Below are positions 43,401 through 52,400 of a stretch of 64,000 bases of DNA, piece after piece (the first letter of the stretch is position 1; each line of letters opens with the position of its first letter). Made by a program: the position numbers and the translations under genes. This stretch comes from Antedon mediterranea (Eukaryota; Animalia; Echinodermata), in assembly GCF_964355755.1 (NCBI RefSeq), contig NC_092680.1, positions 21,585,045-21,649,044 on the forward strand, given 5' to 3'. The notes under the pieces were generated by a model. That model saw only the letters and a list, made by a program, of their open reading frames with translations, did no database searches and was not told where the DNA came from.

Positions 43401-46400
43401 AATAATGGTGCTAAATAATTGCAGGCTAGTACACCTTACCTGAATAAGTACAGCAGAATGCGAGAGGGCGTCATTGATTGTCAATAGGGCATTTGATGTC
43501 GCAACTATTCCAGGGTCGTGACCCCATGTCGTAATCAATAATCTGTCATATTCCTAAATGGATAATAAATAATTACCATAATAATTATTATATTAGTATT
43601 ATACTATTTGATTCCTAAGAAGGGAGAGAAGTTGTCAACTGATGTATTGCATATATGCAGATTCAAGCCAGCTAAAGCAAAAGGTAGGACACTAGGTTCA
43701 GGTTAGCATTTTAACATTTTCAGGAACTTCCCTCCCCCTCAAAATACTGGATCCGCCACAACAAGTCAAACAATAAGACAAATATTTATAAAAAGATATA
43801 AAATAGATTTTCCACATATAGCATTCTGTTTCTGCATAAAAGCAAGAAAACATGGAGTATGGAGTAATTAGTTTAGTCATAAGATATGATGAGATGAGAT
43901 ATTATAATGTATACACTATGGTTTAGTTTAAATTCCTAAAACAACAAATCCATTAGATATGAATTGGTTAAGTGTCACTGCTGGATAAGATAAGATTGTA
44001 CTTACTTGAAACATCTTTGGTAGACACCTTAGTCTTGAACCTTTAACAAGAAGTAATGATTGTGGACCGCTGCCAATCTTACTATATAAGAACAACTTAA
44101 ACCATACTGAATTCACCTAGAAAAGAAAACATCCAACATTGAACATTTAGTAGTAATGATTGTGGAGCACTGCCAATCATATTCAATCTGTTTACACTGT
44201 TTGTACCTACCTCAGGTATGGCTGGACCAATGTGTTGTGGAGTGCAACTACTTACAGGACGAATCTCATTACTAAGAGGTGCCATTGATACTAGGAATCT
44301 GACAATTCAAAAACAAATATTCATCATTTTCTATTCTGAAAACATTTCTTTCCGATCTTTTTTCTTTTTCACTAGACTCAGGTCCAGGGCATTTACTTCC
44401 AAATACATAGGCCAGCAGATGTTAAACACATTTTTAATTACAAAAATTAGAAAATACCAAAATAAACTGCTATTATAAATATCTATTTTGAAAGACATGG
44501 TAACTGATTGATCTTAATTGAACTATGTGAGGTACACATAACCACCAAAACACACCACAGCCTACAGTAAGGCTACTTACTCATAAACCAACCACAACCT
44601 ACAGTAAGGCTACTTACTCATAAACCAACCACAGCCTACAGTAAGGCTACTTACTCATAAACCAACCACAGCCTACAGTAAGGCTACTTACTCATAAACC
44701 AACCACAGCCTACAGTAAGGCTACTTACTCATAAACCAACCACAGCCTACAGTAAGGCTACTTACTCATAAACCAACCACAGCCTACAGTAAGGCTACTT
44801 ACTCGTAATTCTTTTGTAGCACCCTAGAACATGTTGCTGGTTCTAAACCTAGCAAACTTTCACACCTTAACAGATCAATGCCTAAGCCTGTGGGGTACAT
44901 CTCTGGGTCTGGGCTGATTTCCTTGTTATACCTAAAAAGATGAATCAAAGTTTTGTTAAACCATAAATCAACATAAAATGCACTCAAATTGAATTAACTG
45001 TCAAAATATTTTGTGCTTTTGTTTGTCAACTTGTTATCAGCGATTGGGTGTGAAGGTACGCGACTCAAAATATAATTTGTCATTTTGTTTGACCTTATAA
45101 ATGTCTACACACAACACCTATACCTATTTTTTCCTGGTTTTTGTTGATGTTTTTTTTGTTTACGATTTCTGTTTTTAGGTGGATTCTTTTTGTCTATATT
45201 ATATGAACAGTGAAAATGATCAATACAAAAAAAAGTTCCAAAATAATATACTTTTTAATTGTCGGCCTTAAAGTTACCTTAGATAAGATATTGTCTTGCG
45301 TAGAATGACGGCATGTTCAAAATATCTTTGTGCTTCACCCTCAGCAAAACTTGTAGCAGGAACCTAGAAAATAAGCAAATCATTGGAATACAAACTATAA
45401 AGCTCTGTTTACACTATCAAACTTTATGTGCCCATATATGGACATGATGATGTCATATCACTACCATATTTGGGTATATCACTACCATATTTGGGTATAT
45501 CACTACCATATTTGGGTATATCACTACCATATTGGGGCACATCATTTTTTGTCAGTTTGATAGTGTAGACAGAGCTAACAAGATGTTAGCAATTACTGTA
45601 ATAAATTTTGCAATTTATTTGTTTGCCTTTCATAATGAAATCAAGAATGTAGTTTACCTTTTCTAATTCTCCCAGAAAGCTATCAAGAGATTCATCTGAC
45701 AATTTACCAACTTCAAACATTGTGACAGCATGACTCTTTAGACCCTGTCAAAACAAAGGTGACACATTAAAAACTTATTTCTAAGAAGGCAACTATAAAG
45801 TGGGGTAAAAATAAAACCATGTTTAGATTTTTGAAAGCTATATTATCTTCATTATTAATATTAATATTAACATTTGTTCAATTAGTATAGCACCTTCTTC
45901 TATATATAATAACATATATAAATCCAAAGGCAAATTACTAAAAACTGACAATGCTGTGGGTATCAGTGGTTGGATCTCAATAGAGATATAAAATAAAATA
46001 TGCAAAAAGCTAAATCAAAGCGAAGTAAAACAGCCTGAAAAATTAGCAGAGCTAACACTAGCCCTGCATCAGTGCAATACAAACATATCATAAGGAATGG
46101 TGTTAATACTTACAGAAGAGAGGTTTCCCATCATAAGGAATGCTGTTAATACTTACAGAAGAGAGGTTTCCCATCATAAGGAATGGTGTTAATACTTACA
46201 GAAGAGAGGTTTCCCATCATAAGGAATGCTGTTAATACTTACAGAAGAGAGGTTTCCCATCATAAGGAATGCTATTAATACTTACAGAAGAGAGGTTTCC
46301 CATCATAAGGAATGCTATTAATACTTACAGAAGAGAGGTTTCCCATCATAAGGAATGCTGTTAATACTTACAGAAGAGAGGTTTCCCATCATAAGGAATG

Positions 46401-49400: not shown

Positions 49401-52400
49401 ATAGCAGTGACAGGTTACATACTTACTTCTTATTGGTGGATATAGCAGTGACAGGTTACATACTTACTTCTTATTGGTGGATATAGCAGTGACAGGTTGC
49501 ATACTTACTTCTTATTGGTGGATATAGCAGTGACAGGTTACATACTTACTTCTTATTGGTGGATATAGCAGCGACAGGTTGCATACTTACTTCTTATTGG
49601 TGGATATAGCAGTGACAGGTTACATACTTACTTCTTATTGGTGGATATAGCAGTGACAGGTTACATACTTACTTCTTATTGGTGGATATAGCAGTGAGAG
49701 GTTACATACTTACTTCTTATTGGTGGATATAGCAGTGACAGGTTACATACTTACTTCTTATTGGTGGATATAGCAGTGACAGGTTGCATACTTACTTCTT
49801 ATTGGTGGATATAGCAGTGACAGGTTACATACTTACTTCTTATTGGTGGATATAGCAGTGACAGGTTACATACTTACTTCTTATTGGTGGATATAGCAGT
49901 GACAGGTTGCATACTTACTTCTTATTGGTGGATATAGCAGCGACAGGTTGCATACTTACTTCTTATTGGTGGATATAGCAGCGACAGGTTGCATACTTAC
50001 TTCTTATTGGTGGATATAGCAGCGACAGGTTGCATACTTACTTCTTATTGGTGGATATAGCAGTGAGAGGTTGCATACTTACTACTTATTGGTGGATATA
50101 ACAGTGAGAGGTTAAATACTTACTTCTTATTGGTGGATATAGCAGCGAAAGGTTCATTCCACGACGGATGTAAAGATTCAGGATCAGCATCTTTGCCTTT
50201 CCTTTTGGCAAAGCCAAGACGGCAATACATGGACACAGCATTCTTAACCAACTGTAGATCAATCTCTAACACATTAGCAAGCTGCAACGAAAGCAAAGAG
50301 GAATAAATATACAGAGAAGTAATAGTAGTATTAATAGATAAGTAGGCCTAGACTTAAAAGCCATATGGTACATATAGTTACTTAAAAGTAATTGTTTTTA
50401 CTGTTTATAATTAAATTCAATTTTTAGAAGAAAATTTGGCTCTTCAAATTACCCTACAAGTTAATTTTGTTTTTTAAGTGTAGACAAGGCTTTACTCCTA
50501 ATGCATGGAACAGTGCTACTGTATATAATTACAGTATCATAGAGAAAAAATAATTATTTTTACAAGAAAACTAGGCTCTTTAAATGACCTACAAGTTAAT
50601 TTTGTTTTTTTAAGTTTCTAGTTTTAGCCCAAAGGCTCCTTACCTCAGCTACTGTTGTATGTTCATCAATAGATACAAATATCTTGTAGAGAAGAGTTTC
50701 AAAGTAATCACCTTGGACGCGATTCATTACAAATCCCTCGAGCGGTGGAACTAAAATTATATATAAACAAGTTTTTGTTTGTACATTGTCATAATTTAGC
50801 CTTATATTATTCAACTTGGAAGTTTGAATGCATCACAAATACAGTATGTTGTATTACAATAATAACTAGCAGTTAATTCATGATGACCTCTCTGTGACCT
50901 GATTGTGAAATTGGTCTAAAATAGCTGAATGGTTAAAAGGTTATTGTAAGTTGCATCATCTTAAATGGCAATTTTGGTCTTGCAGTTTAGGAGATAGAGT
51001 AAGTTAGTTTGTGCTATTATACTATAGATGGTATAGTGGATGTATTTCACCTGCAGCCCTCATTAAGTTAAAAAAGTATGTTAACTCACCAACAATACAA
51101 TCATCATCTTGGATGGGTACATCCATGTATATTAATCCTTTCCTATATAATTCTTAAAAAATTGTGAATAAACCATTTGTTAAATTTAAAAATACAAAAT
51201 ATTAAAACACTTACACATACATAATTTCACCTGATTTAGCTTACTTTTGTTTAATGGTTGATCTTACTTAGTTTAAGTTAAATGGTTGACCTTACTTAGT
51301 TTAAGATGATTGGTTTATAATCTTACTTTGTACTAAGTAGCAATGAAGTTCACCCGTCTTCATCGGACCAACATCAATCACTTTATCAATAATGTCTTTC
51401 TCTCCCACAGATACAGACTAAGTAAAAACAAATGATGAAAGAATGGTGAGATATTTTTAAGTAAACTACTACTATTGATACCAGACTACACAATGCCCAA
51501 TTGCCTCTGGATTGACCTTTGACCTACTGTATGTGACAGTGTCTGCCTGAGTGAGATGTTCCATTTTCAACTTATTCAAACACCTAGTAAAATAATTTAT
51601 ATACAGTAGTCTGTATATCCTCTTGTATAATCCCACCCCCTAGAACACGAAATTGGGCCAACTTTGAGGGTTGGGACTATACCCAGGGAAAGCCTGGTTC
51701 ATGAAAAAAAAAATGATTGGTAAGCATTTCTTATAAACCCTCAGATCTGAACCTTACATCCAGACGAAAAGTCAATACTGGGACTATATCCTTTTTGTGA
51801 AATCAGACATAAAGTAGGGGGTGGGATTAGACCTGAAGTGGGATTATATCCGAGGATATACGTATTACATTAATATTTAAAATATTTACCTCAATAAAAT
51901 TGTCAAAATTAATTGAAAGACTGAAAACATGATCAAACACAATAACCAACAAAAATAACATATGATTTAAAAGTTTATTATAGGGAAACTTTGTTAGCCT
52001 TATTAAAATACCTAAACAAATCAATGTGCAAGTTGGTGACTACTGTACCTTGATATCATCTTCTGTTATATAGCCAACTTGTGAGATCCACCAAGGGTCA
52101 ATGGGTACAGAGTCTATAGGTGAGACTGGCAAAAGGTCTTTGATCGGCTTCTTGCGGAAAAATTTCTGGAAAATATTACATTATATACAATAGTTATTTA
52201 TTTTACCATCCAACACATTATGGTTTCATAAAACTTCCAAAAACAATCTATGCTCTAATACATAGCCTACATATACAACTATAAAATAAAGCAAATATTG
52301 CGAACCTAATAAAGTTATGGCACCCATGGAAAAAGTACTAACAGTACATAATATTTAATAAAATGTGTCACCTTTTTGTTGTGTTGTTTACCCACCCCAC

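What the first reader, a model, noticed from the sequence alone, without database searches (positions are those of the whole stretch)
44554..51330. Splice-junction-seeded tandem amplification as a recurrent process
At least five of the 20 FAM91A1 introns start with repeats that include the donor, each with an unrelated unit, so they arose independently. Similar exon-edge duplications occur in regucalcin and after a CC2D2A donor (61440-61510 vs 61595-61660). Random minisatellites would rarely straddle exon-intron boundaries this often. This suggests either a mutational mechanism tied to splice junctions or tolerated donor arrays with a role in U1 loading, premature-polyadenylation suppression or NMD-based tuning. 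I know of no named system for this.
Basis: partly seen in the sequence, partly recalled or inferred. Interest (0 to 1): 0.85.

Follow-up and report, generated by a model that had tools for sequence, protein, structure and literature searches.

The report
Splice-donor minisatellites in feather-star FAM91A1
In a feather-star gene, four of twenty introns begin with head-to-tail copies of their own splice signal; this matches a repeat type already described in lancelets and humans, and it likely persists because the cell uses the first signal and discards the copies with the intron.

Summary
Partly confirmed. The window's FAM91A1 (839 of 839 residues identical to the Antedon mediterranea model) has 20 introns. 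Three carry clean donor-spanning arrays (i9 41 bp x25, i11 43 bp x50, i14 37 bp x7) and one an eroded array (i6). That is four, not five: the i10 17-mer starts 84 nt inside the intron. The regucalcin duplicate is not at a splice site; the CC2D2A duplicate only starts near one. Read-derived contigs support the i9 and i11 arrays. A related organism shares i9 and i14 (longer unit) but lacks i11. Where RNA contigs can tell (i14, i9), they use the first donor; all 79 downstream donors would give premature stops. This is a named class: amphioxus 'mirage' minisatellites and human F7/CBS-type VNTRs; this scan has also noted it in many other genomes. Locally 4 of 8 multi-copy arrays span donors (about 0.3-0.5 expected), but two-copy duplications show no excess, the other three genes have 0 of 15, the window was picked for the pattern, and no genome was available. 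Best reading: tolerated, drifting minisatellites; a splice-linked bias stays open; a function is unsupported.

The parts
40491..56139 (-). FAM91A1 gene, 21 coding exons, 20 GT-AG introns
   Evidence: Exact spliced match to P0001, 839 of 839 residues
49112..50154 (-). Intron 9 donor array: 41-bp unit (about 31-35 exon nt + GTAAGTA(T)), genuine donor at 50123 plus 24 further GTAAG starts
   Evidence: multi-copy contigs in X1, X5 and organism B run X6, first-donor joint in X9
46087..48257 (-). Intron 11 donor array: 43-bp unit (37 exon nt + GTAAGT), genuine donor at 48220 plus 49 copies (48 GTAAG, 1 GTGAG)
   Evidence: 73-nt contig at depth 225 vs about 11 in X1, also in X5; absent in organism B
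44548..44808 (-). Intron 14 donor array: 37-bp unit (6 exon nt + 31 intron nt), genuine donor at 44802 plus 6 copies
   Evidence: first donor used in X5 and X9 contigs, unit 8 nt longer in organism B
51240..51338 (-). Intron 6 eroded donor array: GTAAG at +1, +32, +60, +83, units 23-31 nt, donor at 51326
48615..48666 (-). Intron 10 17-bp x3 repeat, purely intronic (starts 84 nt after the donor at 48750); not a donor array
   Evidence: RNA joint 48330/48751
44049..44181 (-). Diverged copy of part of exon 16 inside intron 15 (offset about 100 nt): an old acceptor-side two-copy duplication
   Evidence: Local score 58, shuffle maximum 36 of 500; 33 nt at 88%
50420..50610 (-). Intron 8 two-copy duplication (136-nt offset) starting at +33; donor not shown to be included
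45796..46080 (.). High-copy dispersed repeat next to the distal end of the intron 11 array
   Evidence: Summed contig depth 32,000-100,000 in X1 against about 13 nearby
61412..61664 (+). CC2D2A two-copy duplication (147-nt offset) of the start of the intron after the donor at 61412
38225..38442 (+). Regucalcin: part of the last exon copied twice into the 3' UTR; no splice site involved

Best explanation
Four FAM91A1 introns begin with tandem copies of their own splice donor, and these are likely ordinary 'mirage' minisatellites that arose independently, likely grew by slippage or unequal exchange, and likely persist because the first donor is used and the copies leave with the intron. Step 1 (inferred): a 30-45 bp tandem duplication, common in this repeat-rich genome, happens to straddle an exon end. 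Step 2 (inferred from selection logic): it survives only if the first donor keeps GTRAGT intact, so the protein is unchanged; wholly exonic duplications are purged. Step 3 (partly shown): the pair expands and homogenises; variant units are interspersed, end copies diverge, and the two organisms carry different homogenised units at i14. Step 4 (shown for i14 in both organisms and i9 in organism B; not resolved for i9 and i11 in the window's organism): the most upstream donor is used. Step 5 (computed): any slip to a later donor gives a premature stop, so errors would be removed by NMD rather than make protein. Arrays come and go on a between-species timescale (i11). A modest bias of long arrays towards donors may be real, but the data here place it in expansion or persistence, not in seeding.
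For: Unit anatomy and variant strings. Units unrelated to each other and to the rest of the window. Contigs of exactly unit+30 letters at depth 225 and 88 against 10-13 in X1, and again in a second sample X5. Record coordinates: X5 201->292 and X9 1557->1651 fit the first i14 donor; X9 1259->1435 fits exons 12+13 with no extra unit; X9 joins exon 10 to 31 unit letters followed by unique exon 9. Organism B reads 254 unrelated letters past GTAAGT at i11, with no depth on the i11 units, yet has tandem i9 units and an i14 unit 8 nt longer. 79 of 79 downstream donors give a stop at codon index 324, 416/423 or 500 of 840. Two-copy duplications: 0 clear and 1 borderline donor-spanning of 6, 0.92 expected. 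Same architecture and silent pseudo-donors in print (PMC3087553, PMC3902484, PMC1557585).
Against: Pure chance placement under-predicts the local count: 4 of 8 arrays with 3 or more copies span donors, 0.32 expected (P 1.3e-4; GC-conditioned 0.49, P 7e-4; counting only the 3 clean ones P 0.003-0.009). In i11 and i9 the unit ends at about +6/+7 of the intron, and in i14 it starts at -6, closer to the junction than random breakpoints need be. All four sit in one gene. Contigs drop rare isoforms, so low-level use of later donors (reported for human CBS and IFI6 in PMC1557585) is not excluded.
Confidence: 0.68

Rival explanations
1. Splice-linked mutational bias: co-transcriptional events at strong 5' splice sites (polymerase pausing, U1/U6 engagement, R-loop edge) would expose or break DNA next to the donor, so duplications start or expand there more often than elsewhere. 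The arrays would still be functionless.
For: 4 of 8 multi-copy arrays at donors; one breakpoint within about 7 nt of the junction in i9, i11 and i14 (organism B continues GTAAGT then G, so the i11 unit ends at +6); 3 of 6 GTAAGTA donors carry clean arrays vs 0 of 29 others (Fisher P 0.003); donor-side 4, acceptor-side 0 among multi-copy arrays.
Against: No excess among two-copy events; all 14 events together give only P 0.026 for 4 and 0.12 for 3; 0 of 15 donors in the other three genes by the strict score, FAM91A1 vs others P 0.24; the GTAAGTA test is partly circular because +7/+8 can come from the copied exon; selection alone forces breakpoints beyond +6; the window was chosen for the pattern.
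Confidence: 0.23
2. Functional donor arrays: the copies would load extra U1 snRNP (aiding exon definition or suppressing premature polyadenylation) or send a copy-number-dependent share of transcripts to NMD.
For: The genuine donors at i9, i11 and i14 lack G at -1 and have 8/8, 8/8 and 7/8 intronic matches to the U1 consensus; every later donor yields a premature stop. i9 and i14 arrays are shared with organism B.
Against: The largest array is missing in organism B, which still gives a 3465-nt spliced contig. Array introns are short without the arrays and hold AATAAA in 1 of 4, against 9 of the other 16. No joint to a later donor could be identified in the two spliced runs. Human F7 pseudo-donors are silent (PMC1557585).
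Confidence: 0.06
3. Assembly artefact: the arrays were inflated or created by the assembler.
For: Exact copy numbers are unverified; no listed piece spans an array. X1 may be the sample the window came from.
Against: Multi-copy unit contigs in X1, in a second sample (X5) and, for i9 and i14, in organism B; 9 and 7 distinct unit variants interspersed in i11 and i9.
Confidence: 0.02

Closest known systems
Amphioxus 'mirage' minisatellites (Adh3, globins BflGb6/BflGb9, troponin C, PGBD5). Read: passages of PMC3087553 and PMC3902484; the original Adh3 paper (Canestro et al. 2002) was not held and is known to me only through those passages.
   Same: Tandem unit spans an exon-intron boundary and repeats the splice signal; unit sizes overlap (Adh3 10-72 bp); several arrays per locus; both donor- and acceptor-side events; concerted evolution with divergent end copies; normal mRNA still made; origin stated there as unclear.
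   Different: Crinoid host; up to 50 copies (globin cases 2-6); a between-organism comparison here shows one array absent and one with a different unit. Somatic and allelic length instability were not tested here.
Human donor-spanning VNTRs: F7 intron 7 (37 bp), CBS intron 13, IFI6 (6-16), LMNB2, PDGF. Read: abstract, Introduction and Discussion of PMC1557585.
   Same: First unit holds the exon end plus donor; later copies are identical pseudo-donors; the most upstream site is used. i14 (6 exon + 31 intron nt, 37 bp, 7 copies) is built almost like F7 (4 + 33 nt, 5-9 copies).
   Different: Reported there as single arrays in separate genes; here four in one gene, and two units are mostly exon. 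Leakage to the second and third donors (CBS, IFI6) could not be measured here.
Internal tandem repeats at exon-intron boundaries of human segmental-duplication genes (PMC2812944, passages read) and intron gain by tandem duplication (Rogers model, as described in PMC3087553)
   Same: Tandem repeats overlapping exon borders.
   Different: No new intron or protein repeat is made here; the intron 15 position is shared with other animals.

Membership tests
Mirage minisatellites | Tandem unit spans an exon-intron boundary | tested here: met
   i9, i11, i14 by junction-copy score and unit alignment; i6 in eroded form. Not met for the i10 17-mer or regucalcin.
Mirage minisatellites | Copies repeat the splice signal | tested here: met
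   GTAAG opens 25 of 26, 49 of 51 and 7 of 7 unit-length slices
Mirage minisatellites | Regular mRNA is still produced from the genuine site | tested here: met
   First donor at i14 in X5 and X9 and at i9 in X9. For i9 and i11 in the window's own organism the contigs break at the repeat, so those two are unresolved.
Mirage minisatellites | Concerted evolution within the array, end copies excluded | tested here: met
   27 of 50 i11 units identical; first and last i9 units divergent; organism B i14 unit 8 nt longer, the same length excess as the window's distal copy
Mirage minisatellites | Length polymorphism between alleles | tested here: inconclusive
   Contigs collapse arrays; only presence/absence between organisms was seen
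Mirage minisatellites | Somatic instability | not testable with these tools
   Needs small-pool PCR or raw long reads
F7-type donor VNTR | Pseudo-donors are functional but silent through upstream-first selection | not testable with these tools
   Needs minigene mutation of the first donor; only the outcome (first donor used) was seen
Intron gain by tandem duplication (considered for intron 15) | Intron absent at this position in outgroups | tested here: not met
   Of 15 intron-bearing loci, 6 break at IPE|V with both sides seen (L011, L012, L013, L017, L018, L019), 2 show the upstream side only (L014, L016), 7 read through

The most novel reading that the evidence does not exclude
In this crinoid, minisatellites are preferentially born or expanded at strong 5' splice sites, with one breakpoint at the edge of the U1-pairing core (+6/+7 in i9 and i11, -6 in i14). 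Splicing would then leave a direct mutational footprint on the DNA, and the gain or loss of a 50-copy array between close relatives would make the process datable and testable genome-wide, supplying the missing mechanism for mirages.
Probability: 0.2. Interest if true: 0.6.

Novelty: new member of a known kind. Interest (0 to 1): 0.24.

Why it matters
As it stands it is a dense, clean example of a known oddity in a new animal class, with a useful extra: arrays of different ages in one gene (shared and eroded, shared with a changed unit, lineage-specific with 50 copies). PMC3087553 calls the origin of mirages unclear, and my 8 paper searches listed no genome-wide enrichment test or crinoid case, so two related feather-star genomes would make that question directly testable. 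The 50-donor intron is also a natural substrate for testing upstream-first donor choice outside mammals. Practically, such arrays break short-read assemblies and confuse gene predictors.

Tried and rejected
Whole-genome test: no genome held. Run search: no RNA holder listed as such; X5 and X9 are treated as spliced RNA only because their contigs join exons across GT-AG introns. Per-GT control (3 of 35 donors vs 74 of 735 intronic GT) rejected as a null, because long arrays contribute many GTs; replaced by event-based tests. GC bias as the whole explanation: raises the expectation only from 0.32 to 0.49. i10 as a donor array: rejected. Exon 10 and exon 13 similarity to their introns (scores 33, 31): on inspection scattered or a 19-nt AT-rich match, not junction copies. 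i8 duplication reaching the donor: not shown. Intron 15 as an intron gain: rejected. Transposon-derived units: no close match elsewhere in the window (best 29-34 of 74-86). Organism B's intron 11 start was not found in the window (0 matches at 3 mismatches), which fits loss or replacement of the old intron start but does not show direction. FAM91A1 loci of other animals: repeats scoring 60 or more in 6 of 19 loci, none with GTRAG in its unit on the gene strand; short-read contigs are biased against arrays, so I give this no weight. The NLR-like gene's introns were left out of all counts because its exons are inferred from motifs only and are themselves duplicated. The first tables were swamped by dispersed repeats, so no joint rows for i14 were shown; record coordinates were used instead. 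No notes from this genome were on file. Paper searches: (listings and abstract starts only, apart from the four papers cited).
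Full report
Setting. The window is AT-rich animal DNA. One exon found P0001, named FAM91A1-like of Antedon mediterranea, and P0002 of Anneissia japonica as best hits. An exact spliced match places all 839 residues of P0001 on the minus strand, 56139 to 40491, with 20 GT-AG introns, so the host is a feather star. CC2D2A (P0121) gave 10 complete introns, regucalcin 4 and the ADP/ATP carrier 1 (the last two read from open frames and motifs): 35 introns in all. 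No whole genome is held.

Observation. Three donors are clearly copied: i9 (41 bp, 25 copies), i11 (43 bp, 50 copies), i14 (37 bp, 7 copies). GTAAG opens 25 of 26, 49 of 51 and 7 of 7 unit-length slices. The i11 unit is 37 exon bases plus GTAAGT; the i9 unit is about 31-35 exon bases plus GTAAGTA(T); the i14 unit is 6 exon bases plus 31 intron bases. i6 is an eroded fourth case: GTAAG at +1, +32, +60, +83 (3 extra where 0.066 is expected), though its junction alignment alone is borderline (28 of 500 shuffles). The i10 17-mer is not a donor array: two spliced contigs join 48330 to 48751. The regucalcin duplicate copies last-exon sequence into the 3' UTR, and the CC2D2A duplicate is a 147-nt two-copy event whose left end is at or just after a donor. 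Units are unrelated apart from the donor core.

Are the arrays real? In run X1 (possibly the source sample) contigs of 73 and 71 letters, which is unit plus 30, lie on the i11 and i9 units at depth 225 and 88 against 10-13 for the flanks; the same two contigs occur in X5, another sample and study. Around i14 the X1 contigs stop at 44583 and restart at 44775. Depth is not a copy number and no listed piece spans an array, so exact counts are unverified.

Age. Organism B (coded; run X6 covers introns, so it is DNA) has contigs with two donors in tandem at i9, and an i14 array whose unit is 8 bases longer, the same excess as the window's most distal copy. At i11 one 556-letter contig at single-copy depth runs through exon 11 and GTAAGT into 254 unrelated letters, and nothing lies on the units. 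So the 2.2-kb array was gained or lost since the two organisms split, and i14 has been homogenised differently in each (inference). B's intron start is not in the window, and a high-copy repeat abuts the distal end of the array.

Splicing. X5 record coordinates 201 to 292 leave exactly 88+2 bases for exon 15 and the start of exon 16, so exon 14 ends at the first donor; X9 gives the same, and its 3465-letter contig has no extra unit between exons 11 and 14. At i9, X9 joins exon 10 to 31 unit letters followed by unique exon 9 sequence. For i9 and i11 in X5 the contigs break at the repeat and the copy cannot be told. Contigs drop rare forms. Use of any later donor gives a premature stop in 79 of 79 cases, at once for i9 and i14 because the phase-2 GTAA supplies TAA.

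More than chance? With arrays collapsed, wholly exonic placements removed and breakpoints inside GTRAGT barred, 4 of 8 non-transposon arrays with 3 or more copies span donors against 0.32 expected (P 1.3e-4; 3 clean only, P 0.003). Conditioning on GC raises the expectation to 0.49 (P 7e-4 and 0.009). Among 6 two-copy events, 0 clearly and 1 doubtfully span a donor against 0.92 expected; over all 14 events P is 0.026 for 4 and 0.12 for 3. Four repeats inside dispersed elements and the regucalcin 3' UTR copy were left out of these counts. The other three genes have 0 of 15 (Fisher P 0.24). The classes were defined after looking and the window was selected for the pattern, so these P values are upper limits on surprise, not proof. 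Two details keep a splice-linked bias alive: breakpoints close to the junction, and 3 of 6 GTAAGTA donors with clean arrays against 0 of 29 (P 0.003; partly circular).

Mechanism. Most likely (0.68): independent small duplications across an exon end, tolerated because the first donor stays intact and is chosen, then expanded and homogenised like any minisatellite. Shown: anatomy, independence, first-donor use where resolvable, turnover between organisms, premature stops. Inferred: slippage or unequal exchange, the selective filter, NMD of errors. A splice-linked mutational or expansion bias (0.23) is not excluded. A function (0.06) is disfavoured: B lacks the largest array, and array introns hold AATAAA in 1 of 4 against 9 of 16.

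Known kin. Earlier scan notes pointed to 'mirages' and F7, which I then read. PMC3087553 (passages) defines mirages as tandem repeats spanning exon-intron boundaries, units 10-160 bp, no interference with splicing, concerted evolution, origin unclear. PMC3902484 (passages) adds PGBD5 and troponin C. PMC1557585 (abstract, Introduction, Discussion) lists F7, CBS, 6-16, LMNB2 and PDGF and shows upstream-first donor choice. PMC2812944 (passages) covers boundary repeats in human duplicated genes. The 2002 Adh3 paper was not held. Eight searches listed no crinoid case and no genome-wide enrichment test; most subscription papers are outside the library, and no supplements were read. The scan's own notes report the pattern in at least 13 other genomes, including a sea urchin, and one wider annelid sample without enrichment; these are unchecked.

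Side test. Intron 15 looked like an intron born from exon 16, but its position is shared by other animals in 6 of 15 intron-bearing loci with both sides seen, 2 more with one side, while 7 read through. It is better read as an old intron overwritten by an acceptor-side duplication.

Verdict. Real, four rather than five, a new member of a known kind. Interest 0.24; the open and testable part is whether long arrays favour donors genome-wide.

Noticed in passing
window 44049-44181 (FAM91A1 intron 15 / exon 16): Most of the 94-nt intron 15 resembles the start of exon 16, an old acceptor-side duplication in an intron whose position is shared with other animals.
   Followed up: yes
window 56343-57745: Tandem array of about nine tRNA-Asn(GTT) genes and pseudogenes (150-bp period; ARAGORN Asn and 1 drifted Lys-CTT copy) between the divergent starts of FAM91A1 and CC2D2A.
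   Followed up: partly
window 20583-29667: NLR-like gene: N-terminal domain exon, a run of duplicated mini-exons with their flanking intron pieces (22840-26127), then a long NACHT-like exon ending in six 177-bp LRR-like repeats (28554-29608). Labels are from my reading of the translation, not from a family search. A 41-bp x4 array starts about 17 nt after a donor-like site near 23947.
   Followed up: partly
window 17023, 36060, 36983, 45400-45576, 54840-55020, 63350-63470: A short dispersed element with a variable number of internal 21-bp repeats; extremely high summed depth in all four runs laid at 45325-45638.
   Followed up: partly
window 45796-46080: High-copy repeat directly abutting the truncated distal unit of the intron 11 array; possible role in the array's origin or in loss of the old intron start.
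   Followed up: partly
L012:7524-7759 and L013:7524-7959: Two near-identical contigs of another animal carry a 25-bp array with 9.4 vs 17.4 copies in a FAM91A1 intron, ending about 24 nt before an acceptor-like CAG; the unit reads as a donor consensus on the opposite strand.
   Followed up: no
window 60104-60216: 58-bp two-copy repeat ending 13 nt before a CC2D2A acceptor.
   Followed up: partly
window 38225-38442: The coding end of regucalcin is echoed twice, with decay, in its 3' UTR at about 100-nt spacing.
   Followed up: yes
window 30821-31177: Two tRNA-Val(AAC) genes in a diverged 284-nt duplication.
   Followed up: no
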